Below are positions 266 through 42,085 of a DNA stretch of 44,509 nt, in pieces. Every line of letters begins with the position of its first letter. Position 1 is the stretch's first letter. Both the position numbers and the translations under genes were made by a program. Source of the DNA: Escherichia phage JSSK01; sequence record OQ442786; one strand, given 5' to 3'. The notes under the pieces are model-generated. The model was not told where the DNA came from. It did no database searches and saw nothing but the letters and a program-made list of their open reading frames with translations.

Positions 266-286
266 TCTGTTTTCTGTAATGACTAG

Positions 287-315
287 TTGACTATTATCCT
301 CGACCCTATTATATT
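287..315 (+). promoter_or_regulatory. early promoter TTGACT-17-TATATT with AACGAGA leader box
   Basis: near-consensus hexamers with 17 bp spacer; leader shares ATCGA-AACGAGA box with promoters at ~40039 and ~41735. Confidence 0.55.
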
Positions 316-6080: not shown

Positions 6081-7157
6081 ATGCTATTAACTTTAGCACC
6101 GCAGGGTTTATCTATGAGCTTACTTACATCCCTAATCAGCCACCAGATTTGGCTGCAACGCACCGCATCCGGTGAGGTGAAAGACCTAGCACCGTTCATT
6201 CAGGAGATGCGGGACGAAATAAAACGGCAGGTGCTGTTATTCGGCGACGACGGTCGCTCCACACGGCGACTGAATAAACTGTTACGCGACCTTGAAGAAG
6301 CACTGGCGGGACTTACCGGTGACTGGCAAACAAAGCTGACAGAAGACCTTAAGGAGCTGGCGACGTATGAGGCTGAGTGGAACGTAAAGACACTTACCAC
6401 CAACGTTAACGCGGAATTTGTTACACCTACCGCCGAGCAGGTGTGGGCCGCTGCCGAGTTTCAACCTCTGTCGCTAAGTGACAAGCCCGTTGACTTCACC
6501 AAGCTGATGTCAGGCTGGGGTGAAGCGGAGGTCGCGCGCCTTGTAACTGGCGTTAAGATGGGCTTTGTGCAAGGCCAAACCACACGGCAGATTGTTAAAG
6601 AAGTAGTTGGTAAAGGCGGCCTGGCTGACGTATCAGAGAAACACGCTGCTACAGTAATCCGCACCGCGCTGTCCCACGTGTCCAACGAAGCCCGTAATGA
6701 GACGTACCGCCAGAACGACGACATTATCGAGAAATATGAGTGGGTGTCTACTCTTGATTCTAGGACCTCAGCCGTTTGCAAGGCCAGAGATGGGATGACG
6801 TGGGAAATCGGTAAGGGTCCGATGCCTCCGGCCCATTTTGGGTGCAGAAGTACCACTGCGCCTGTAATCAGTTCGGAGTTCTACTTCCTCGATAAAGGCG
6901 CAAAACGAGCGGCTAAGGGTGCGGACGGAGGTACTCAGGTAAGCGCAGACACCACTTACTACGAGTTCCTGAAACAACAACCGGCATGGTTTCAGGACCA
7001 GGCTCTAGGCCCGGTGCGGGGTAAGATTTTCCGTAACAGCGGTATATCGCCGGAAGAGTTTCGCGTAATATCTGTAGATGGTTTCGGGAATCCGCTCACG
7101 CTTAAGCAGATGGCGGAACTCGATAAACGTGTTGCTGATTATCTGAAAGGGGAATAA
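6081..7157 (+). CDS. head morphogenesis protein (Mu F / SPP1 gp7-like)
   Basis: motif LDSRTSAVCKARDG...PPAHFGCRS resembles the conserved D-R...DG...P-H-x-CR signature of the Mu F family; follows portal. Confidence 0.7.
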   Translation: MLLTLAPQGLSMSLLTSLISHQIWLQRTASGEVKDLAPFIQEMRDEIKRQVLLFGDDGRSTRRLNKLLRDLEEALAGLTGDWQTKLTEDLKELATYEAEWNVKTLTTNVNAEFVTPTAEQVWAAAEFQPLSLSDKPVDFTKLMSGWGEAEVARLVTGVKMGFVQGQTTRQIVKEVVGKGGLADVSEKHAATVIRTALSHVSNEARNETYRQNDDIIEKYEWVSTLDSRTSAVCKARDGMTWEIGKGPMPPAHFGCRSTTAPVISSEFYFLDKGAKRAAKGADGGTQVSADTTYYEFLKQQPAWFQDQALGPVRGKIFRNSGISPEEFRVISVDGFGNPLTLKQMAELDKRVADYLKGE

Positions 7158-7643: not shown

Positions 7644-7707
7644 AATGCCTGTGATTATTCCAGTTATTCCACCAAATTGTAAATGTAGGAATAAACTATT
7701 CGAATAG

Positions 7708-7736
7708 TTGACTTTTCACTAAAAATGTGCTAAGCT
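7708..7736 (+). promoter_or_regulatory. promoter TTGACT-17-TGcTAAGCT overlapped by 12-bp palindrome CTATTCGAATAG
   Basis: consensus -35, extended -10 TG, weak -10 hexamer; perfect palindrome at ~7696-7707. Confidence 0.4.
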
Positions 7737-29885: not shown

Positions 29886-30173
29886 CTAACTATAATAGCT
29901 CGCTATTAGGGTGTCAACCTGTTTAAACGAACCGACGACAAAAACATTCGCACCACGTTTACGCATCCGCTCGTGCTCGCGTAACTGGTGCGGGTCAGGC
30001 TTCGTGTTTTCGTCTTTCTTAACCTCGACGAACCAGACGATGCCGCCTGGGAGAATTGCCAGCAGGTCGGGAGCACCCGAACGTCCTTCGTAGGAGAGCT
30101 TACGAACGAGGCCCCCCAGGGCCTCGAATCGGTCTTTTGCGTATTTCTGTATTTTGCCCTCAGGAGTACTCAT
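29886..30173 (-). CDS. VRR-NUC domain nuclease
   Basis: GAPDLLAILPGGIVWFVEVKK matches the VRR-NUC signature (PD...EVK). Confidence 0.65.
   Translation of the reverse strand: MSTPEGKIQKYAKDRFEALGGLVRKLSYEGRSGAPDLLAILPGGIVWFVEVKKDENTKPDPHQLREHERMRKRGANVFVVGSFKQVDTLIASYYS
29889..29917 (-). promoter_or_regulatory. replication-module promoter cassette copy 1 (TTGACA-17-TATAGT)
   Basis: plus-strand text AACTATAATAGC...CTATT...GTGTCAAC; three near-identical copies. Confidence 0.55.
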
Positions 30174-33287: not shown

Positions 33288-33316
33288 ACTATAATAGCTA
33301 ACTATTCAGGTGTCAA
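33288..33316 (-). promoter_or_regulatory. replication-module promoter cassette copy 2 (TTGACA-17-TATAGT)
   Basis: plus-strand text GAACTATAATAGCTAACTATTCAGGTGTCAACAC. Confidence 0.55.
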
Positions 33317-33320
33317 CACT

Positions 33321-34562
33321 TTATTCTAAATCTTTTTCACTAACCCGATTCCACTCAGGACGTTTGTCGTTTGCCGTTGCGACACATGGCGCTCCTGGCT
33401 TACGGGTAATGAAGTCTTTCAGTTCATCTTCCGGTATGACTTTAACAGCTTCGGTTGGCGTCATGAGCACTTGCTTCATTAGCGCTATGCCATACTTGCC
33501 AGCAACTTTCTCCGCGTCTTTCCACGCACGATTACCTGGGCGTCCTTCTACCAGTTTGTACCCCGGCACTTTCTTACCGGAATGCAGCGCGGCAGCCATA
33601 GCTTTCTCAACCTTGTCGATGTGCTGGCGCAACAACGGCAACTTCTCATACTCAGCTACAAGTTGCTCCGTCGTCAGTTCCAGCGCAAAGTCGTCCTCCA
33701 GTTCTTCCGCCAGTACAGCGTTAACGGTTTTTGTACGCGCGGCGCATTGTTCAGAGAACCGACACCACTGACAACCATCGACAGACGGCTTAAAGTCAGA
33801 TGCTTTCAGGTTCTTCTTGCCGCGGGAATAGGCATCGAGCGCTAACAGTGCTCGTTTTTGTGCAAACTTAGCGAACAGTTCAAGGCCTTCAACCGAGATG
33901 TCCCACTCCGACGCACCGCCAGCGCACGGCTGGAAAATTACCAGACGAACCACGGTGATGTTATAACGCCTCTTGAGTCGGCGATAAACACCGAGAGCGT
34001 AAAGCATAAGCTGCTTGTTTTCTTTCGCTTCGACACGATGCCGTCCTGTTTTCAGGTCGCCGATAATGAGCATATGCTCGTCAGTGTTCGCCAGTTCCTG
34101 AACGGCAACAAGGTCAGCGGTTCCGAACGTCTCAACGCCTTCGTAACCCGGATGCAATACCTCAGTAAGATTTACCCGCATTTCCAGCTTGGCGTAAGTC
34201 GCTACGTCGATAATCGCTTTGCAGTAGTCGGTGTACTTGCGCACCTGCTCAATCATGTCAGCCGTAATCAGTACCGCGCCTTTCATCTGGCTAATTAGCG
34301 CCTTAATCTGGCCTTTACCCTCGTCCAGCACGTAAGCGCCGACTTCACGCTCCAACGGCAACGCAGTGCCGCGTATATAGGCGTTGAGATGGACCTCAGC
34401 TATGGTGTGCATGGCGGTTCCTGATACAGCGGCTTTACCCGACGTGTTAGGGATATCTTTTTCACACGCCAGCGACGCAGCGCATGACAGCCACTTTTTA
34501 GCGCCTGACGGTGACAGTAAGGCGTGTACATCATTATTGCCGCCTCGTTCTTTTAGTTTCAT
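33321..34562 (-). CDS. PD-(D/E)XK exonuclease (DUF2800 / Cas4-RecB-like) with C-terminal Cys cluster
   Basis: start reassigned to ATG 34562 (MKLKE); N-terminal LLSPSGAKKWLSCAASL typical of DUF2800; C-terminal CQWCRFSEQC. Confidence 0.6.
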   Translation of the reverse strand: MKLKERGGNNDVHALLSPSGAKKWLSCAASLACEKDIPNTSGKAAVSGTAMHTIAEVHLNAYIRGTALPLEREVGAYVLDEGKGQIKALISQMKGAVLITADMIEQVRKYTDYCKAIIDVATYAKLEMRVNLTEVLHPGYEGVETFGTADLVAVQELANTDEHMLIIGDLKTGRHRVEAKENKQLMLYALGVYRRLKRRYNITVVRLVIFQPCAGGASEWDISVEGLELFAKFAQKRALLALDAYSRGKKNLKASDFKPSVDGCQWCRFSEQCAARTKTVNAVLAEELEDDFALELTTEQLVAEYEKLPLLRQHIDKVEKAMAAALHSGKKVPGYKLVEGRPGNRAWKDAEKVAGKYGIALMKQVLMTPTEAVKVIPEDELKDFITRKPGAPCVATANDKRPEWNRVSEKDLE

Positions 34563-35602: not shown

Positions 35603-36127
35603 TTATTCTTCTTCGAAATACTTGTTCTTGATTGCTGTCAAGCGTTCCAGGTATTCAGCCAGGTCTTCGTCTTTAATCGCTGCAATCTTCATTTTCTTAC
35701 CAGTGAACTCTTCCAGCAGTTCATCAGAATCGTCGCACGCGGCATCGCTAGGACCTTCATTAATTGCATCGTCGATGGCCTGAATCTGGTCACGAAGAGA
35801 CTGGTAATCGACCTCTTCTTTCTCTTCTTCCGGTTCTGGCGTAGGCTCCTCTACTTTAGGTTTACGCGGCTTGCGTTTCGGCTTCTCTTCTTCTGCTGGT
35901 TTGGTGTCAACGACGTCTTCACCTTCGACCTCAATGTCTCTTACCGCGTCGAACGCTTCTTTAACCACATGAGCTACCGTCTTTTCTTCGACCGTGATTT
36001 CTTTTGTTGCAACAGTAGGCTTTATTGTTGCGGATTCAGCAATGACTACTTGTTTCGAACTATTCGCGGCAATCAGTTCATGTGCAACTACGAAACGTTC
36101 CAGCAATACTAAGAATTTCTCTAACAT
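35603..36127 (-). CDS. highly acidic protein (174 aa), unknown function
   Basis: long Glu/Asp-rich stretches (EVEGEDVVD..., PEPEEEKEEVD...). Confidence 0.5.
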   Translation of the reverse strand: MLEKFLVLLERFVVAHELIAANSSKQVVIAESATIKPTVATKEITVEEKTVAHVVKEAFDAVRDIEVEGEDVVDTKPAEEEKPKRKPRKPKVEEPTPEPEEEKEEVDYQSLRDQIQAIDDAINEGPSDAACDDSDELLEEFTGKKMKIAAIKDEDLAEYLERLTAIKNKYFEEE

Positions 36128-36151
36128 TTGTTTCTCTCCTGTTTGTGTAAG

Positions 36152-36379
36152 TTACTCACCGTCGCCTTCAGTAAGGCTATCGTCTATTAGTTCAAATTTA
36201 CCGTTTGAGTGTTGAATAGCTTCTTGCCCGCAATGGTCACAGACAACAAGTTTATCGAACCCATCAAACTCATCCCCTACTACGCAAGAAAGTACAAATT
36301 TATGTTTTGTGCACACTTCTTGCGGAGCGCCGAAAATTGCTCGAAAACCTTTAGCTATGGCCCCAGTGATTGTGTTCAT
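36152..36379 (-). CDS. zinc-ribbon-like small protein
   Basis: CxxC pairs (CTKH...C and CDHCG). Confidence 0.5.
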   Translation of the reverse strand: MNTITGAIAKGFRAIFGAPQEVCTKHKFVLSCVVGDEFDGFDKLVVCDHCGQEAIQHSNGKFELIDDSLTEGDGE

Positions 36380-36407
36380 ATCTGCCCCTCTCGTTTGGTA
36401 TGGGCTA

Positions 36408-36436
36408 ACTATAATAGCGAACTATTCACATGTCAA
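36408..36436 (-). promoter_or_regulatory. replication-module promoter cassette copy 3 (TTGACA-17-TATAGT)
   Basis: plus-strand text TAACTATAATAGCGAACTATTCACATGTCAATGG. Confidence 0.55.
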
Positions 36437-36500
36437 TGGGCTTTTCTAAAATAATTAATATGGTACTATTCACATATCAACTGACTAAGGAGTAACTGAC

Positions 36501-36716
36501 ATGCAACCATCTGAACTAGGCATCCGTGTAGAGCAACGCCGTAAAGAACTCGGTATCTCCCAGCGCCGTCTGGCTGTTCTGGCCGGCGTTTCCCAGGGCG
36601 CGATTAACCAGCTTGCACTCGGGGTAACTCAGGACGTACGCCCGGCAACGCTGTTTAAACTGGCGGAAGTGCTGGAAGTAGACGCCAAGTGGCTGGCGCT
36701 AGGTGAAGGGGCGTAA
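36501..36716 (+). CDS. XRE-family HTH transcriptional regulator (Cro/CI-like)
   Basis: ISQRRLAVLAGVSQGAINQL is a classic HTH_XRE signature; AAGGAG SD; stop codon lies in terminator loop. Confidence 0.7.
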   Translation: MQPSELGIRVEQRRKELGISQRRLAVLAGVSQGAINQLALGVTQDVRPATLFKLAEVLEVDAKWLALGEGA

Positions 36717-36731
36717 CGCCCCTTTCTTTTT
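36708..36731 (+). terminator. rho-independent terminator (GGGGCG-TAA-CGCCCC, TTTCTTTTT)
   Basis: read from sequence. Confidence 0.6.
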
Positions 36732-36733
36732 AC

Positions 36734-38956
36734 CTATTCCAAATCCTCCTCTGTCACCACCAGCATCTCATTTGGTTCGTATAGTGTCTTCGGCCTTAAT
36801 CTATCACCTATTCTTTCGGGTATACGATATGTTCTCGGTACTACTTCGCCGTTAGCATCGCAACCAAGCATTAGTTCTCCATCTTTCAACATTTTATCAA
36901 GATGGGTGTTAGTCACAGAGAAGTCACCGGAACGAGCCACTATCTGCTGCTGAGTAAAACCGCGACCTGTGTCATCTGACTGTTGCAGGTCTTCCAGTGC
37001 CGAAAGTATTGACTCCTTCCTTACTTCATCCCTGCCGCGTTTAACTTCTTCCTTTACTTTTTGCTTACCTTCTTTCGTCAACCCTTCTTCCCGCTCTTTC
37101 TCCTCGTCAGTTTTGAACGGCTCGAAACCCCACGGCATCAACACAAGCGCCTTGTGTGGTTCAGGCAGGTCCAGGTTTACGATTGTGCCGTATTCCTCTG
37201 TGCTACCCAGGAACTCAACCGCTCGGTATTCTTTAGGCGGCGGCGCTTCACGGAACTGTACCGACTCCAGCACCATGCCAACCGTCTTCTGCTGAGGCCC
37301 GTGCTTGAATTTCGAGTGATATACGTTTATCTGACGGTCGGTTGCACGTTCGATTGTCAGTTCCACGTCAACACCCGCATACAGCGCCCCACTGCCGCGT
37401 GCTTTCTTTCCACCCTTCGGCGTATGGTGGACAACGCCTACTGCGGCTTTAGTTGCATCGCGTACTTCTTTCAGAATGGCGATAACTTTACCCATGCCGA
37501 TTGCTGTTGATGAACTGTTCTCGTCGAACTTATCAATCGTCAGTGCCAGGGTCTGGTTAAGGGTGTCGAACGCAACCATGCCAATTGGCTCGTCGCCAGC
37601 AGTTTCGCGCATTAACTTAATCAGGCTTTTAAGTTTGCCGACTTCGCCCATATCGATGACGTGTACATAATCTTTACCTTCCCCGCCATATTTAGCCGCT
37701 AGTGCATCAATACGGGTGCGTGTAGCTGCGCCACCCTCACCATCAATATAGAAATGGTGGCAACGCTGGGTATCCGCCCCCGCAAACCTGTACCCGGCGG
37801 CGCTGAGGCACATCATCCCCAGCGTATAGAACGATTTGTACGTGCCAGATTCCCCGACGATATCCCAGATACAATCCGACGGCATGTACCCCTCAACGAC
37901 GAAATCAGCCTTTACCGGCTCCGGTAACTCGTCCTCCTCTGAGTCCTCGTCGTCTTCCAGGTCGTCGAGGCTGCAAGTTACTGGGTCCTCGTTCTCTGTG
38001 CGGTGTAGTTCTTCAATCTCTTCTTCCGGTAAATCAGGCAGAGCCGCACGAATGCTGTTAATGCTGATAGGTTGCTTATCTATGTTAAGCTCGTCGGGTA
38101 GGCCACACATACGCAGGGCCAAATGCTGCCTACGGTTAAGCTCGGTGCAAGCGCCGTTGTTTGTATGCTGGCAGACAAAGCGCACTTCTTTACCGTCGAG
38201 CATTATGCTGGTGGAGCCCTTGCCTGTATGCAGATGTTCGTTAGGGCATGGCACTTCGTACCCGCGCCCGGAAGATAAAGCGTCAAGGCCAAGCTCGGCT
38301 TCGCAGAAGTGTGCTATATCCGCGTTAAGCCCATGCTCATCAGCGGCAAGTGTTTTAGCCTCACGCTTACGCAACCCCATCTCTTCGGCTTTCTTGATGT
38401 ACCGCTCAGCACGGATAACACGCCCTTCTGTAACCGTTATCTTCGACTCTTTATGCGGCAGGTAGATAAGGCGGTTGCCGTCTTCTGTGCAGTGGTCACG
38501 CAACGCTTCGTCTATTTCTAACTCTGCACAAATAGCACGTTGCACCATCCACGCGTCGTTAGAGTTAAACGGCGTGCGAGCTGGAACCAGAACGCGGAAA
38601 GCGTAATCTCCGTTTTTACATGCGTGCTGATGCGATGCCGTTGTGTGCAGAATATTGAAGAACGGCGCGTTCTTGAATTTGCGTGTCAGGTCGCGGTACT
38701 GAGTACGGTTGAGATGGTCGAAATCGAACTTAACCACACTGTCTTCCAGGATAGCGTTTTTACGGCGACCACCAACAGGCGCAATAGCTTTCTGTTTAAT
38801 CTTGGCAGCGTCGTACTCTTCCTTAGTCCATGACGGGTCCACGGATAAACGCTTCGATGTATCGCAGACATACTCGACAAACTGCTCCAGCGGCATTTCA
38901 CGCGCTACAGGGTTTTTATCGAATGTGTTACGCAGCGTTGCAAAAACAATATTCAT
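36734..38956 (-). CDS. DNA primase/helicase (AEP-type primase-like N-terminal region + RecA-like ATPase)
   Basis: Walker A GESGTYKS, Walker B-like MVAFDTLNQ, sensor VVHHTPKGG; N-terminal DxD (FDFDHL) and His-rich block suggestive of AEP primase. Confidence 0.75.
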   Translation of the reverse strand: MNIVFATLRNTFDKNPVAREMPLEQFVEYVCDTSKRLSVDPSWTKEEYDAAKIKQKAIAPVGGRRKNAILEDSVVKFDFDHLNRTQYRDLTRKFKNAPFFNILHTTASHQHACKNGDYAFRVLVPARTPFNSNDAWMVQRAICAELEIDEALRDHCTEDGNRLIYLPHKESKITVTEGRVIRAERYIKKAEEMGLRKREAKTLAADEHGLNADIAHFCEAELGLDALSSGRGYEVPCPNEHLHTGKGSTSIMLDGKEVRFVCQHTNNGACTELNRRQHLALRMCGLPDELNIDKQPISINSIRAALPDLPEEEIEELHRTENEDPVTCSLDDLEDDEDSEEDELPEPVKADFVVEGYMPSDCIWDIVGESGTYKSFYTLGMMCLSAAGYRFAGADTQRCHHFYIDGEGGAATRTRIDALAAKYGGEGKDYVHVIDMGEVGKLKSLIKLMRETAGDEPIGMVAFDTLNQTLALTIDKFDENSSSTAIGMGKVIAILKEVRDATKAAVGVVHHTPKGGKKARGSGALYAGVDVELTIERATDRQINVYHSKFKHGPQQKTVGMVLESVQFREAPPPKEYRAVEFLGSTEEYGTIVNLDLPEPHKALVLMPWGFEPFKTDEEKEREEGLTKEGKQKVKEEVKRGRDEVRKESILSALEDLQQSDDTGRGFTQQQIVARSGDFSVTNTHLDKMLKDGELMLGCDANGEVVPRTYRIPERIGDRLRPKTLYEPNEMLVVTEEDLE

Positions 38957-39150
38957 TTCTTTTTCTCCGCACGTTCTAAGGCTTCCTGCATACGGCGCAT
39001 TGCGCGGTTCATCTTTACCGGCGCGAAGAAATCGGCGCCGTGTTTCTGTCGGCGTAGCTGTGGAACTATTAACTTTGTCATTGTATAATCCTTATGCTTA
39101 CTTTGATGGTTTGTACTTTAGCCCCGACGTTCTAGCGTTGGGGTTTCTTT

Positions 39151-39441
39151 TTACCGTTTAGCCAACCCTTCCAGCAAATTTTTATACTCTTCAAAATATT
39201 CCTCGACCAAATCATCGCCGAAATAGAAGTCGATATACTCGAGATTATCTCTTACGTTAAGCGATGCCGACATGGTGCTTAGTTGGCGTAAGCTAATTAG
39301 CTTCATTTCTGTTTCTACGCAGAAAGGCCGGTAGGTATCAAGATGGCAAGAGATATTGAAGCATAAAGCGAACTCTCCTGCCACGGAGTGAACCATATAC
39401 ACTTCGTTTTCTGCTTTATTGTGGAAAATTACGCCTTTCAT
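39151..39441 (-). CDS. hypothetical protein (96 aa)
   Basis: track ORF, ATGA-coupled to upstream HTH gene. Confidence 0.45.
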   Translation of the reverse strand: MKGVIFHNKAENEVYMVHSVAGEFALCFNISCHLDTYRPFCVETEMKLISLRQLSTMSASLNVRDNLEYIDFYFGDDLVEEYFEEYKNLLEGLAKR

Positions 39442-39620
39442 TTCACGTTCTCCTTAATCCATGCTTCGACTTTATTACGGTCAAATGTTCCCGGTAAACG
39501 GCGGCCCATAATCTTAATACAGCAGTCAGGGAATTTGCCGCTGCGCAACCAGTTATTAATTGTCTGACGTGTCACCCCGATACGTTCAGCTACTTCATTC
39601 TGCGTCATATAATGCGACAT
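39438..39620 (-). CDS. small HTH DNA-binding protein (AlpA/excisionase-like fold)
   Basis: start reassigned to ATG 39620 (AGGAGAT SD); MTQNEVAERIGVTRQTINNWLRSGKFP is HTH-like; first gene of minus-strand operon. Confidence 0.55.
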   Translation of the reverse strand: MSHYMTQNEVAERIGVTRQTINNWLRSGKFPDCCIKIMGRRLPGTFDRNKVEAWIKENVK

Positions 39621-39651
39621 TTTTATATCTCCTGTTTGTTTGGTGAAACTG

Positions 39652-39680
39652 AGTATAGGATAGCGGGAATGTAAAAGCAA
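39652..39680 (-). promoter_or_regulatory. candidate leftward promoter TTGCTT-17-TATACT
   Basis: read on minus strand upstream of HTH gene. Confidence 0.4.
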
Positions 39681-39717
39681 CCAATCTCTGTAATATTTAA
39701 TCTTTACAAAAATGTTA

Positions 39718-39747
39718 TTGAAAGTTCTTGACACATGTTTGTATAAT
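39718..39747 (+). promoter_or_regulatory. candidate rightward promoter TTGAAA-18-TATAAT
   Basis: perfect -10 hexamer; adjacent TTGACA is only 8 bp from the -10. Confidence 0.4.
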
Positions 39748-39753
39748 GGTTTT

Positions 39754-39973
39754 GGGACTTGTATATATTACGGAGTTGACGAACCCTCCCCGAGGGATTC
39801 GTCAACCCCTCCCAGACAGCTGAGATGCTTGCCTTGGGGTTTAAGGATAAGTGTATCTAAATCTCATTTAAAGAAGTAACCCGCTGAAATATCTACTGTT
39901 TCTTAATGTGCCGTAGATTCGCAACCGTAAAAATGTAACGATTATTGGGCAGGCTTAAGCCTGCCCTTTAGTT
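39754..39973 (+). ncRNA. candidate ~215-nt non-coding transcript ending at intrinsic terminator
   Basis: no ORF longer than ~15 codons; imperfect palindrome GTTGACGAA...TTCGTCAAC; CCCTCCCCGA boxes. Confidence 0.25.
39947..39973 (+). terminator. rho-independent terminator (GGGCAGGCTT/AAGCCTGCCC perfect inverted repeat, TTTAGTT)
   Basis: 10-bp perfect inverted repeat followed by T-rich run. Confidence 0.6.
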
Positions 39974-40038
39974 ACCAAGTAATAAGAATAAAGGCACAAC
40001 CCTCCCCGAAGAATCACAACGGCAACGTAACTATTCTC

Positions 40039-40067
40039 TTGCACACCCCAACATAATAGGTTACTAT
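40039..40067 (+). promoter_or_regulatory. early promoter TTGCAC-17-TACTATTCA with AACGAGACA leader box
   Basis: near-identical to promoter at ~41735. Confidence 0.55.
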
Positions 40068-40101
40068 TCACTTATCGAAACGAGACATAAGGAATTTAGA
40101 G

Positions 40102-40320
40102 ATGAACAAAGCGACCGCAAGCGTAGTTTCCGCAATCAAAGAAGTTTACGGCATCGATATCTCAGAGCGCGTAATTATCGGGAACAAGCGCAACTTCTTT
40201 ACGTTCGACACCGACGGAATGGATGAAAATGATTTTGTTAACGTACAACGTTTCGCTAACGGTAAAGGACTTCGTAACGAGCCAGCGGGTTACAAGAAAT
40301 TTGCTATCTACTTTAAATAA
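40102..40320 (+). CDS. hypothetical early protein (72 aa)
   Basis: AAGGAA SD; first ORF of right-end early block. Confidence 0.5.
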   Translation: MNKATASVVSAIKEVYGIDISERVIIGNKRNFFTFDTDGMDENDFVNVQRFANGKGLRNEPAGYKKFAIYFK

Positions 40321-40329
40321 GACAGAGGA

Positions 40330-40524
40330 GTGATGGTTATGTTTAAGAAGGGTCAGTTGGTTAAAACAAAACGCGGCGGACAGTACGTAATAGTTACCCA
40401 GAATGAGGATGAATATAGTACCGCTGTAGACGTATGGGGTCTTGTACGAAAGAAACATGGTTACGCTTTCAGAGATAATTTAACACTCATCGGCAACAAT
40501 TTTAAATTCAAAGGGGCGAAGTGA
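40330..40524 (+). CDS. hypothetical early protein (64 aa)
   Basis: track ORF with GAGGAG SD. Confidence 0.5.
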   Translation: MMVMFKKGQLVKTKRGGQYVIVTQNEDEYSTAVDVWGLVRKKHGYAFRDNLTLIGNNFKFKGAK

Positions 40525-40709
40525 TGGAAGAATTAATTTACGACGTATACGTAGGAGGAAGATTTAGTTATTCAACAAGAAGCAGGGGAGAGGCATTTAA
40601 CCATTGCTATGCGTTAACAAAGTTAGGTTTCAACGCGGAATTTAAATCCAGAACGGCATCGAATCATGATGCTCGTGCCGACGACTCTGAGGGAGGTTGC
40701 CGTGAATAA
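40521..40709 (+). CDS. hypothetical early protein (62 aa)
   Basis: ATGA-coupled. Confidence 0.45.
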   Translation: MMEELIYDVYVGGRFSYSTRSRGEAFNHCYALTKLGFNAEFKSRTASNHDARADDSEGGCRE

Positions 40710-40731
40710 TATTTCAATTGTGGAGGTTGGT

Positions 40732-40926
40732 ATGAGTCCGTATAACGAATTCCGCTTACGCCGTCTGATTGGCGGTCTGCGCGCCGCCGAGTTTGGTGTT
40801 GAATGCTGGGAAAAGGCGAAGTACACCCCGTTGAAGTCGTGGCATTTGGCTCATGCTAAGGAGGTAGCACAGTACCGTGAGTACAAGTTAAACAGTTTTC
40901 TTAAGCACCACGGGGTTGAGTTATGA
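40732..40926 (+). CDS. hypothetical early protein (64 aa)
   Basis: track ORF 40666-40926; start moved to ATG 40732 with GGAGG SD. Confidence 0.45.
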   Translation: MSPYNEFRLRRLIGGLRAAEFGVECWEKAKYTPLKSWHLAHAKEVAQYREYKLNSFLKHHGVEL

Positions 40927-41078
40927 GAATTCGAATAACTGACCGCAGGCTTATAGATTTCGGTATCTCGGTAGGTGATGTTTTTCTGGCGTTCAGCAGC
41001 AACCATTATGGTTTTATGATTGAGTACAAAGGGTCGTTATTGTTCGTGTATCGGGATGAATGCGAGGTTCTGGTATGA
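40923..41078 (+). CDS. hypothetical small protein (51 aa)
   Basis: not in track; ATGA coupling. Confidence 0.35.
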   Translation: MRIRITDRRLIDFGISVGDVFLAFSSNHYGFMIEYKGSLLFVYRDECEVLV

Positions 41079-41218
41079 GGGAAGCATTCGAACGGTGGGC
41101 CATCGTCGAGGGTCTGCCGGTTAACAAGGGTTCAAAGAAAGAGTACCTGAACGTTAAGACACGTCTCGCGTGGCGGGCGTGGAAAGCTGGTGTTCAAACT
41201 GCGATGAATACGAGGTGA
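41075..41218 (+). CDS. hypothetical small protein (47 aa)
   Basis: not in track; ATGA coupling. Confidence 0.35.
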   Translation: MREAFERWAIVEGLPVNKGSKKEYLNVKTRLAWRAWKAGVQTAMNTR

Positions 41219-41221
41219 GAT

Positions 41222-41422
41222 ATGGGTGAGTGGATTAAGTGTAGTGAGATGCTGCCGGGCAACGGTAGTACAGATAAAGAATTCCTGGTGTATGAAACGT
41301 TAAATAACGCAGTTCAACACGATTATTACATCGTTCCTGATGACGGGAGAAAGCCTTTCTGGAATCACTACGATAAGTACGTGACTCACTGGATGCCGTT
41401 ACCTGAGCCGCCGGAAGTGTGA
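41222..41422 (+). CDS. DUF551-like protein
   Basis: EWIKCSEMLP near N-terminus and VTHWMPLPEPP at C-terminus match the DUF551 signature. Confidence 0.6.
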   Translation: MGEWIKCSEMLPGNGSTDKEFLVYETLNNAVQHDYYIVPDDGRKPFWNHYDKYVTHWMPLPEPPEV

Positions 41423-41454
41423 TGTTCAATAGTTTGGGATTTTACTGAGTGACT

Positions 41455-41510
41455 TACGCTGCTACACAGCAGCGTACAACTTTAACTTAGTGTCGTCAAA
41501 AGGCGACACT
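41455..41510 (+). promoter_or_regulatory. two tandem hairpins without U-tract (possible RNase III processing or regulatory sites)
   Basis: ACGCTGCT-ACAC-AGCAGCGT (8-bp perfect stem) and AGTGTCG-N8-CGACACT (7-bp stem) in a 135-nt intergenic gap. Confidence 0.35.
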
Positions 41511-41556
41511 TTCACCAAACGCAACAATCGAAGTGACTATTGCAGGAGACGCAACA

Positions 41557-41727
41557 ATGAAACTGAATGACATCGTAACCTGGACCGGTAGAAACGGAGA
41601 AAAGCGATTCGGGCTTATTGTTGCGTCAGACGGCAACAAGTACCGTGTTATGCGATGGCGTCAGTGGGCACGACGCCCGAGGTACTACTGGATTCGTGGC
41701 GAACGATTATCGTTAAAACACCAATAA
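41557..41727 (+). CDS. hypothetical protein (56 aa)
   Basis: track ORF 41533-41727; ATG 41557 has AGGAG SD. Confidence 0.45.
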   Translation: MKLNDIVTWTGRNGEKRFGLIVASDGNKYRVMRWRQWARRPRYYWIRGERLSLKHQ

Positions 41728-41734
41728 AATTTAC

Positions 41735-41763
41735 TTGCACACCGGGATAGAATAGGCTACTAT
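41735..41763 (+). promoter_or_regulatory. early promoter TTGCAC-17-TACTATTCA with AACGAGACA leader box
   Basis: near-identical to promoter at ~40039. Confidence 0.55.
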
Positions 41764-41795
41764 TCATTTACACAAACGAGACAGAGGAAAACGAA

Positions 41796-41981
41796 ATGTT
41801 AGAAGTTAAAGTTACAAAAAGAGACAGTGAACTGACTAAAGGCATCTTCAAAGTAGGAACCGTTATAGACCTGGATTTAGCTGACATGGTTGTGTACCAC
41901 GGTGGGATTGAGTGGAACGTGGCGCGGACCGACAACGGCTTCAAGTTACCAGGAAGTGAGACTCACTTTGCAGCAGTTTGA
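41796..41981 (+). CDS. hypothetical early protein (61 aa)
   Basis: GAGGAAAA SD; first ORF after promoter. Confidence 0.5.
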   Translation: MLEVKVTKRDSELTKGIFKVGTVIDLDLADMVVYHGGIEWNVARTDNGFKLPGSETHFAAV

Positions 41982-42085
41982 AATATGGTTCCGGAGCCGG
42001 TTTGGGTTCACCCCGGCCCGGAAAGACAATGGCTACGCTGAACCAGAGGTTCAGCGGATGTGGGTACGGTGGAAGGAGAAACAGC

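What the first reader, a model, noticed from the sequence alone, without database searches (positions are those of the whole stretch)
36405..36731. Lone XRE-family HTH gene on the opposite strand inside the replication module, flanked by tandem ACTATTCACAT(G/A)TCAA repeats
A 71-aa Cro/CI-like regulator is encoded on the plus strand, convergent with the primase-helicase gene and divergent from the zinc-ribbon gene. The 120-bp divergent region upstream carries two copies of ACTATTCACAT(G/A)TCAA (~36422 and ~36466), one of which overlaps the -35 of the leftward promoter cassette. This looks like an autoregulatory switch controlling expression of the middle replication genes.
Basis: partly seen in the sequence, partly recalled or inferred. 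Interest (0 to 1): 0.5.

Follow-up and report, generated by a model that had tools for sequence, protein, structure and literature searches.

The report
Cro-like repressor with promoter-embedded operators

Summary
A 71-aa HTH_3 protein is encoded at 36501-36716 (+), and ACTATTCACAT(G/A)TCAA occurs at 36421-36436 and 36465-36480. The direct repeat is not the functional unit, though. On the minus strand each copy is the -35 hexamer plus spacer of a leftward sigma-70 promoter, and it contains one arm of a 14-bp palindrome, AATAG-N4-CTATT. That palindrome has six perfect copies in the window (0.04 expected) plus a one-mismatch copy at 36457. All seven lie in promoter cores. Across about 36 related Kagunavirus genomes the arms are invariant and the centre varies. 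Two related phage lineages with different XRE recognition helices carry symmetric operator variants (AATAC-N4-GTATT; TTAGC-N2-GCTAA) at the same promoter positions. The protein is closest to phage 434 Cro in sequence and predicted fold. Best reading: a partnerless Cro-like repressor that autoregulates and damps most strong promoters of a virulent phage. Binding by this protein is inferred, not shown. The motif was published before for a relative, interpreted there as a promoter for a phage RNA polymerase that these phages lack. Verdict: new member of a known kind, modest interest.

The parts
36501..36716 (+). XRE/HTH_3 gene, 71 aa, 434-Cro-like single-domain protein (candidate repressor)
   Evidence: ORF. 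Pfam HTH_3 E=2.3e-12. Best PDB sequence match is 434 Cro, also 71 aa, E=2e-6 over residues 6-68. The AF2 model has five helices and pLDDT 81.7. The top Foldseek hit is 2cro, 42% identity, TM 0.74/0.81.
36487..36492 (+). Ribosome-binding site AAGGAG, 8 nt before the ATG
   Evidence: Read from the sequence. Invariant in 37 related control regions.
36413..36426 (.). Operator O1: perfect palindrome AATAGCGAACTATT, in the spacer (about -25 to -12) of leftward promoter PL1
   Evidence: Arms invariant and centre variable in relatives.
36457..36470 (.). Operator O2: AATATGGTACTATT (one mismatch). It overlaps the TACTAT -10 candidate of the XRE promoter and the spacer of leftward PL2.
   Evidence: Conserved in 37 of 37 Kagunavirus control regions. 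It is annotated as 'phage promoter 5' in fBC-Eco01.
36408..36436 (-). PL1: sigma-70 promoter TTGACA-17-TATAGT driving the 75-aa ORF and the downstream leftward replication and recombination genes
   Evidence: 11 of 12 consensus match. The -35 is invariant in relatives.
36451..36480 (-). PL2: weaker tandem leftward promoter-like site, TTGATA-18-AATTAT
   Evidence: 9 of 12 match. It aligns with PL1 over about 29 nt.
36425..36469 (+). Region holding the XRE gene's own promoter. Candidates are TTCACA-16-TAAAAT (36425-36452) or, by analogy with relatives, -10 TACTAT (36464-36469) with a poor -35.
   Evidence: One search gives 10 of 12 for the first candidate. Relatives have TTGCGT-17-TACTAT (Jersey) and TTGCCG-17-TATAGT (L089) at the equivalent place. 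Which one is used was not determined.
36705..36725 (+). Intrinsic terminator of the XRE transcript (GC-rich hairpin plus T-run), 9 nt before the end of the convergent helicase-primase gene. There is no T-run on the minus strand.
33293..33306 (.). Operator in the spacer of TTGACA-17-TATAGT (33316->33288, minus strand), upstream of the ssDNA-binding and DNA polymerase genes
   Evidence: Conserved in relatives.
29894..29907 (.). Operator in the spacer of TTGACA-17-TATAGT (29917->29889, minus strand), upstream of the methylase and helicase block
   Evidence: Conserved in relatives.
40055..40068 (.). Operator over the -10 of rightward TTGCAC-17-TACTAT (40039-40067), and in the spacer of a weak leftward TCGATA-17-TATGTT
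   Evidence: Conserved in relatives.
41751..41764 (.). Operator over the -10 of rightward TTGCAC-17-TACTAT (41735-41763)
16814..16827 (.). Operator over the -10 of leftward TTGCGC-17-TACTAT (16843->16815), upstream of the superinfection-immunity, phosphoesterase and Rha block
282..295 (.). Weak operator-like site (ACTAGTTGACTATT, one mismatch) overlapping the -35 of TTGACT-17-TATATT at 287
   Evidence: One-mismatch sites occur at the equivalent place in Jersey (42338) and fBC-Eco01 (41749).
7703..7716 (.). Weak operator-like site (AATAGTTGACTTTT, one mismatch) overlapping a TTGACT -35
   Evidence: An equivalent site occurs in fBC-Eco01 at 6154.
36152..36379 (-). First gene under PL1: 75-aa Cys-containing protein of unknown function
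   Evidence: No homolog in Jersey, VSiA or Tsm2, and absent from fBC-Eco01.

Best explanation
The 71-aa protein is a partnerless 434-Cro-type repressor of a virulent Kagunavirus-like siphophage. As a dimer it most likely binds the 14-bp palindrome AATAG-N4-CTATT. Two copies, O1 and O2, lie 44 bp apart in its own 121-bp control region. There they overlap the core of two tandem leftward sigma-70 promoters and of its own rightward promoter, giving negative autoregulation and repression of the leftward replication genes. The same operator is built into at least five further promoter cores. In 'type L' promoters (TTGACA-17-TATAGT, ahead of the replication genes) it lies in the spacer. In 'type R' promoters (TTGCRC-17-TACTAT, ahead of the early rightward genes and the imm/Rha block) it lies over the -10. 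As the protein accumulates it would therefore damp most strong host-polymerase promoters of the phage, much as lambdoid Cro turns down PL and PR during lytic growth. Shown here: the gene, the fold class, the palindromes, their placement in promoters, their enrichment and their conservation. Inferred: that this protein is the binder, that it acts as a dimer, and that the effect is repression.
For: The protein is HTH_3. Its closest solved relative is 434 Cro, by sequence (E=2e-6, same length) and by predicted fold. 434 Cro is a dimer that reads 14-bp operators (established knowledge). The palindrome has 6 perfect copies against 0.04 expected (P about 5e-12), and it is the most frequent 5-Nx-5 palindrome in both the window and phage Jersey. 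All the strong sites lie in promoter cores. Across about 36 Kagunavirus genomes the arms are invariant while the central 4 nt vary freely. The only place with two sites is next to the XRE gene. HTH_17 and Rha, the other recognisable DNA-binding proteins, have no homolog in Tsm2, which keeps the palindrome in its promoter spacers, and the 75-aa neighbour is not conserved either. Covariation: L089 (helix TQGGIGHI) has AATAC-N4-GTATT at 4 promoter sites, two of them flanking its XRE gene. L105 and L111 (helix SQGYISHL) have TTAGC-N2-GCTAA at the same promoter positions. Each genome lacks the other variants. More distant XRE homologs (L115, L120) also have their own palindromes flanking the gene. 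RNA-seq of a relative places the gene in the middle class (PMC12645636).
Against: There are no binding data. Kagunavirus, Jerseyvirus and Tsm2 share the half-site AATAG although their recognition helices differ (SQGAINQL, SQSLITHL, SQGMLNHL), so helix and operator do not covary one-to-one. Cornellvirus VSiA and the L090, L094 and L104 groups have an XRE ortholog but no detectable palindrome regulon. The XRE-upstream region of Tsm2 lacks the palindrome. The covariation rests on two lineages (three genomes), and the L089 counts are small. A conserved host factor, or an unrecognised phage protein, cannot be excluded. The published time course is coarse, and I assigned its gene numbers by gene order only.
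Confidence: 0.6

Rival explanations
1. The palindrome is a real regulatory site but is read by another factor: a host transcription factor conserved in Enterobacterales, or a phage protein with no recognisable DNA-binding domain. The XRE protein would then act only locally or on other targets, for example host or resident prophage genes.
For: The same half-site occurs in E. coli, Salmonella and Serratia phages despite different XRE recognition helices. VSiA-like phages keep the XRE gene without the palindrome. Tsm2 has no palindrome next to its XRE gene. Two proteins of unknown function (174 aa and 90 aa) are conserved in all four genomes.
Against: The only double site lies next to the XRE gene, which is typical of autoregulated HTH repressors. 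Symmetric operator variants occur in lineages with changed XRE helices. The 14-bp geometry fits a 434-Cro-type dimer. From memory, I know of no E. coli regulator with this consensus. Purifying selection on the arms within phage genomes argues that the site benefits the phage.
Confidence: 0.22
2. The repeated motif is a promoter for a phage-encoded RNA polymerase, as published for Kagunavirus fBC-Eco01 (consensus tgAATAGTa-ccTATTat-T, found with PHIRE), and the XRE protein is unrelated to it.
For: PMC9825357 reports seven such 'phage promoters'. Six of them coincide with palindrome sites.
Against: No RNA polymerase gene is annotated in fBC-Eco01 itself (78 CDS), nor in Jersey, VSiA or Tsm2. The largest ORFs in the window are tail, polymerase and helicase-primase genes. 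The motif lies between canonical -35 and -10 hexamers at 17-bp spacing. It is twofold symmetric with a free centre, which is unlike single-subunit polymerase promoters.
Confidence: 0.03
3. The similarity among the sites reflects only duplication or convergence of a good sigma-70 promoter sequence. The palindrome would be a by-product of AT-rich, -10-like sequence on both strands, with no protein bound.
For: The arm CTATT runs into the -10 (CTATTATAGT, or TACTATT). A TATAAT also reads on the plus strand at 36410-36415. VSiA-like promoters keep only the arm next to the -10.
Against: The -10-distal arm (TGAATAG) is equally invariant, although the spacer sequence of a sigma-70 promoter is normally free. 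The centre and flanks vary while both arms stay fixed across about 36 genomes and 7 sites. The palindrome sits in two different registers relative to the -10. L089 and L105 changed both arms symmetrically.
Confidence: 0.1
4. The protein activates rather than represses, in the manner of restriction-modification controller proteins, which activate at low concentration and repress at high concentration.
For: C.BclI and C.AhdI are among the best fold matches. The candidate XRE promoter with -10 TACTAT has a poor -35.
Against: At most sites the operator lies between or over near-consensus -35 and -10 hexamers (11 of 12), where binding should exclude RNA polymerase and no activator is needed.
Confidence: 0.05

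Closest known systems
Phage 434 Cro (and the lambdoid Cro function in general)
   Same: Same length (71 aa) and the same five-helix HTH_3 fold. It is the best sequence and fold match. It is a single domain with no C-terminal oligomerisation or peptidase domain. The operator is a 14-bp palindrome with conserved outer arms and a free centre, and the sites overlap promoter cores. The expected role is to damp early promoters during lytic growth.
   Different: There is no divergent cI partner, no tripartite OR/OL, and no integrase or lysogeny module in this virulent phage family (annotations; PMC8425127). The operator sequence is AATAG-N4-CTATT rather than ACAA-N6-TTGT. There are at least seven dispersed sites rather than two clusters. 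The recognition helix differs (SQGAINQL against KQQSIQLI).
Phage P1 C1 repressor with its dispersed operators (from established knowledge, not tested here)
   Same: One small phage repressor controls many promoters scattered over the genome through a single operator type.
   Different: P1 C1 is a prophage-maintenance repressor that binds asymmetric 17-bp sites, and it belongs to a different protein family. Here the sites are palindromic and the phage is virulent.
Restriction-modification controller (C) proteins such as C.AhdI and C.BclI
   Same: A very similar small dimeric HTH_3 fold. They bind palindromic boxes that overlap their own promoter and give autoregulation.
   Different: There are no adjacent restriction-modification genes. 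The targets are many phage promoters. The operator sits in a position that predicts repression only.
'Phage promoters' of Kagunavirus fBC-Eco01 (PMC9825357)
   Same: It is the same DNA motif at equivalent genome positions.
   Different: It was interpreted there as a promoter for a phage RNA polymerase. Here it is read as an operator embedded in host sigma-70 promoters and linked to the XRE protein.

Membership tests
XRE / HTH_3 family (Pfam PF01381) | Significant match to the HTH_3 profile above the curated cutoff | tested here: met
   E=2.3e-12, 47.2 bits against a cutoff of 23, residues 11-65.
434-Cro-type single-domain repressor | Small protein of about 70 aa, five-helix fold, no second domain | tested here: met
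   71 aa. phmmer gives 434 Cro at E=2e-6 over residues 6-68. The AF2 model has five helices. The top Foldseek hit is 2cro, TM 0.74/0.81, 42% identity.
434-Cro-type single-domain repressor | Palindromic operators of about 14 bp that overlap promoters next to the gene | tested here: met
   O1 (36413-36426) and O2 (36457-36470) overlap PL1, PL2 and the candidate XRE promoter.
434-Cro-type single-domain repressor | The protein binds those operators as a dimer | not testable with these tools
   The only evidence is indirect: covariation in L089 and L105/L111 and phyletic exclusion of HTH_17 and Rha.
Lambdoid immunity region (cro paired with cI) | A divergently transcribed cI-type repressor gene that shares the operators | tested here: not met
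   The divergent neighbour is a 75-aa protein of unknown function, followed by replication genes. No cI or integrase is annotated in close relatives.
CI-type prophage repressor | A C-terminal dimerisation or S24 peptidase domain | tested here: not met
   The protein has only 71 aa, all taken up by the HTH domain. Distant homologs that do have such a domain (L109, L110, L112) are much longer.
Restriction-modification controller protein | The gene is adjacent to, and controls, a restriction endonuclease and methyltransferase pair | tested here: not met
   The neighbours are the helicase-primase gene and small unknown ORFs.
XRE antitoxin of a toxin-antitoxin pair (HigA/HipB type) | Co-transcribed with an adjacent toxin gene | tested here: not met
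   The gene is monocistronic, with its own terminator at 36705-36725 and convergent and divergent neighbours.
Phage RNA-polymerase promoter (for the DNA motif) | The genome encodes its own RNA polymerase | tested here: not met
   None is annotated in fBC-Eco01, Jersey, VSiA or Tsm2. The large ORFs in the window are accounted for.

The most novel reading that the evidence does not exclude
A single 71-aa Cro without a CI partner acts as the master regulator of a strictly virulent phage, by binding an operator built into the core of nearly every strong host-polymerase promoter of the genome. This repressor-operator pair has diversified within Guernseyvirinae into separate specificity classes (AATAG, AATAC, TTAGC half-sites). 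That would make these phages a natural set of orthogonal repressor/promoter pairs and a model for how a regulon and its regulator co-evolve across a whole genome.
Probability: 0.4. Interest if true: 0.5.

Novelty: new member of a known kind. Interest (0 to 1): 0.35.

Why it matters
Guernseyvirinae (Kagunavirus, Jerseyvirus) are among the phages most often isolated and proposed for therapy and food safety, yet how they control transcription is essentially unstudied. Genome papers flag this gene as a 'repressor', which raises lifestyle questions. One paper assigned the repeated motif to a phage RNA polymerase that does not exist. Recognising the motif as an operator inside host-type promoters, probably read by a Cro-like protein, gives a simple and testable model of the phage's gene-expression programme. 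It also explains why a 'repressor' gene is a core gene of a virulent phage. Finally, it offers compact repressor/promoter parts with natural specificity variants.

Tried and rejected
1. A whole-genome palindrome scan allowing one mismatch was dominated by GC-rich coding sequence and told me nothing. Perfect-copy and promoter-anchored counts were used instead.
2. A scan for 8-mers from XRE-upstream regions that recur elsewhere was too noisy to define operators in the VSiA, L090, L094, L104 or Tsm2 groups. The promoter-anchored palindrome search also found no clear regulon there.
3. HTH_17 (39438-39620/39734) and the Rha/KilAC protein (14406-15077) were considered as the palindrome reader. I rejected both because neither has a homolog in Tsm2, which keeps the palindrome. 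The 75-aa neighbour was rejected for the same reason.
4. An Rfam search of 36000-42000 gave nothing above threshold.
5. The supplements of the K1B4 transcriptome paper held only host gene tables under the searched identifiers.
6. Host-factor consensus sequences recalled from memory (CRP, FNR, ArgR, TrpR, NarL, IHF) do not match the palindrome. This is a recollection, not a test.
7. The direct-repeat (iteron-like) reading of the 16-mer was rejected, because its middle part is not conserved among relatives.

Full report
**Where the window comes from.** The 4-kb region around the finding is 96-98% identical to Escherichia phages of the genus Kagunavirus (Guernseyvirinae), for example Bas70, KMB35 and 590B. 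It is 80-90% identical to hundreds of Salmonella Jerseyvirus records. These are virulent siphophages. The annotations of close relatives show no integrase or cI, and a genome paper describes clear plaques and no lysogeny genes (PMC8425127).

**Checking the observation.** The ORF 36501-36716 (+) encodes 71 aa and matches Pfam HTH_3 at E=2.3e-12. It is convergent with the 740-aa helicase-primase gene (36734-38956, minus strand) and divergent from a 75-aa ORF (36152-36379, minus strand). The 16-mer occurs exactly at 36421-36436 and 36465-36480, which is more than chance allows (4 matches at up to 3 mismatches against 0.62 expected). The 'zinc ribbon' label for the 75-aa ORF could not be confirmed, because it has no Pfam hit and its PHROG family has unknown function.

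**What the repeats are.**
- Read on the minus strand, copy 1 is the -35 hexamer and spacer of a near-consensus sigma-70 promoter, TTGACA-17-TATAGT (36436->36408, 11 of 12). Copy 2 belongs to a weaker tandem promoter.
- The same sequence of about 29 nt recurs at 33316->33288 and 29917->29889, and more weakly at 40078.
The window holds six perfect copies (16814, 29894, 33293, 36413, 40055, 41751) against 0.04 expected (P about 5e-12), plus a one-mismatch copy at 36457. It is the most frequent 5-Nx-5 palindrome in the window.
- The sites fall into two promoter settings. In 'type L' promoters (TTGACA-17-TATAGT; 29917, 33316, 36436, all leftward and ahead of replication genes) the palindrome fills the spacer from about -25 to -12. 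In 'type R' promoters (TTGCRC-17-TACTAT; exactly three matches: 16843 leftward, 40039 and 41735 rightward) it covers the -10.
- Weaker one-mismatch sites at 282 and 7703 overlap the -35 of two further promoter-like sequences, and they are conserved in position in relatives.

**Conservation.**
- In 37 distinct Kagunavirus versions of the XRE control region, both arms of O1 and O2 and the -35 hexamer are invariant.
- The same pattern holds at all equivalent sites in about 36 genomes. The 29894 site, for instance, has at least eight different centres with fixed arms. This is the signature of a twofold-symmetric protein-binding site, not of a direct repeat.
- Phage Jersey has four perfect and three one-mismatch copies at equivalent positions. 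Serratia phage Tsm2 has two perfect and two one-mismatch copies. Cornellvirus VSiA has none.

**Which protein reads it.**
- The XRE protein's closest solved relative is phage 434 Cro, which has the same length, E=2e-6, and aligns end to end.
- A single-sequence AF2 model (pLDDT 81.7, five helices) has 2cro as its top Foldseek hit (42% identity, TM 0.74/0.81), followed by R-M controller proteins and SinR. All of these are dimers that read short palindromes. The 434 operator is also 14 bp with conserved outer positions (established knowledge).
- The window encodes two other recognisable DNA-binding proteins, an HTH_17 protein (39438-39620/39734) and a Rha/KilAC protein (14406-15077). Neither has a homolog in Tsm2, which retains the palindrome. 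The 75-aa neighbour is not conserved either. The XRE ortholog is present in all of these genomes.

**Covariation.**
- Among 80 loci retrieved with an XRE alignment, L089 (recognition helix TQGGIGHI) carries AATAC-N4-GTATT at four sigma-70-like promoters. Two of those flank its XRE gene.
- L105 and L111 (helix SQGYISHL) carry TTAGC-N2-GCTAA at the same promoter positions.
- Each genome lacks the other variants.
- More distant homologs (L115, L120) also have private palindromes flanking the gene.

**Caveats.**
- Kagunavirus, Jerseyvirus and Tsm2 share the half-site AATAG although their helices differ (SQGAINQL, SQSLITHL, SQGMLNHL). Only flanking positions differ between them.
- VSiA-like and several other lineages have an XRE ortholog but no detectable palindrome regulon.
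- Tsm2 has no palindrome next to its XRE gene.
- Binding by this protein is therefore the best-supported inference (about 0.6), not a demonstrated fact.

**Gene arrangement.** The 'lone gene on the opposite strand' is specific to this lineage. In VSiA and Tsm2 the XRE gene heads a rightward operon that continues into the helicase-primase gene, from a classical divergent control region. Kagunavirus and Jerseyvirus appear to have the primase block inverted. In the window the XRE transcript ends at a plus-strand intrinsic terminator (36705-36725) only 9 nt from the end of the primase gene, and the minus strand has no T-run there. Leftward transcription coming from the primase operon probably therefore reads antisense through the XRE gene; this is inference.

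**Likely mechanism.** The protein is made from a promoter overlapped by O1 and O2. The candidates are TTCACA-16-TAAAAT or a TACTAT -10. As a dimer it occupies operators that lie within the RNA-polymerase footprint of its own promoter and of at least seven others. This gives negative autoregulation and a general damping of the early-rightward, imm/Rha and replication promoters. That is functionally like lambdoid Cro, but without a CI partner. A coarse RNA-seq time course of a 93%-identical phage places the gene in the middle class and the HTH_17 gene in the early class (PMC12645636; I assigned the gene numbers by gene order). Consistent with that, the candidate promoter directly upstream of the HTH_17 gene (TTGCTT-17-TATACT, about 39680->39652, read) carries no operator.

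**What is already known.** Relatives annotate the gene as a transcriptional regulator or repressor, and it is listed as one of three regulatory core genes of Jerseyvirus, without functional tests (PMC8425127). The DNA motif itself was reported for Kagunavirus fBC-Eco01 as seven 'phage-RNA-polymerase promoters' with consensus tgAATAGTa-ccTATTat-T (PMC9825357). Six of those seven features coincide with palindrome sites, yet that genome's 78 annotated CDS include no RNA polymerase. I found no paper linking the motif to the XRE protein. That search covers only the open-access library.

**Verdict.** The finding is real, and the system is larger than described. In kind, however, it is a Cro-like HTH repressor with palindromic operators in promoters: a new member of a known kind, of modest interest (0.35).

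Noticed in passing
window 39621-40101: A 480-bp region without convincing ORFs lies between the HTH_17 gene and the first rightward gene. It holds a strong rightward promoter-like site (TTGAAA-18-TATAAT, 39718-39747), a long GC-rich hairpin (about 39776-39806) and a terminator-like hairpin (39947-39966). It could encode a small RNA of about 200 nt or contain the replication origin. There was no Rfam match.
   Followed up: partly
L041 (Salmonella virus VSiA) 37006-37295: Just after the helicase-primase gene of VSiA, which lacks the palindrome, the half-site occurs twice as a direct repeat (GTGAATAGTTAT, 21 bp apart). Next to it are G-rich repeats (GGGGGAGA...). This could be an origin or iteron region.
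   Followed up: no
L041 34354-37005 and L042 6799-9567, compared with window 36501-38956: The helicase-primase block is inverted in Kagunavirus and Jerseyvirus relative to Cornellvirus and Tsm2. In the latter two the XRE gene and the primase gene form one rightward operon.
   Followed up: partly
window 7693-7716: Next to the weak operator at 7703 there is an 'everted' perfect palindrome, ACTATTCGAATAGT (CTATT-N2-AATAG), so the half-sites occur here in both relative orientations.
   Followed up: no
window, 8 sites (6558, 7160, 16619, 17695, 23552, 26666, 36436, 38327): The octamer ATGGGCTT occurs 8 times against 1.1 expected, mostly inside ORFs. One copy abuts the -35 of PL1. This is unexplained.
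   Followed up: partly
window 16593-16799 (-) and 14406-15077 (-): A superinfection-immunity protein (Imm_superinfect) and a Rha/KilAC antirepressor-like protein are encoded in a leftward block inside the structural module of a virulent phage. The block is driven by an operator-bearing type R promoter.
   Followed up: partly
window 40069-40095 and 41765-41790; L040 about 39924; L042 about 10111: A conserved 5' leader, (A)TCGAAACGAGA(C/G)A..AGGA, follows the type R early promoters in Kagunavirus, Jersey and Tsm2. A related word, TATCGAAA, occurs 6 times in VSiA.
   Followed up: no
L122 (fBC-Eco01) 34147-34270: fBC-Eco01 lacks the 75-aa Cys-containing gene that is the first gene under PL1 in the window. 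That gene is therefore accessory, and the control region abuts the 174-aa-protein ortholog directly.
   Followed up: no
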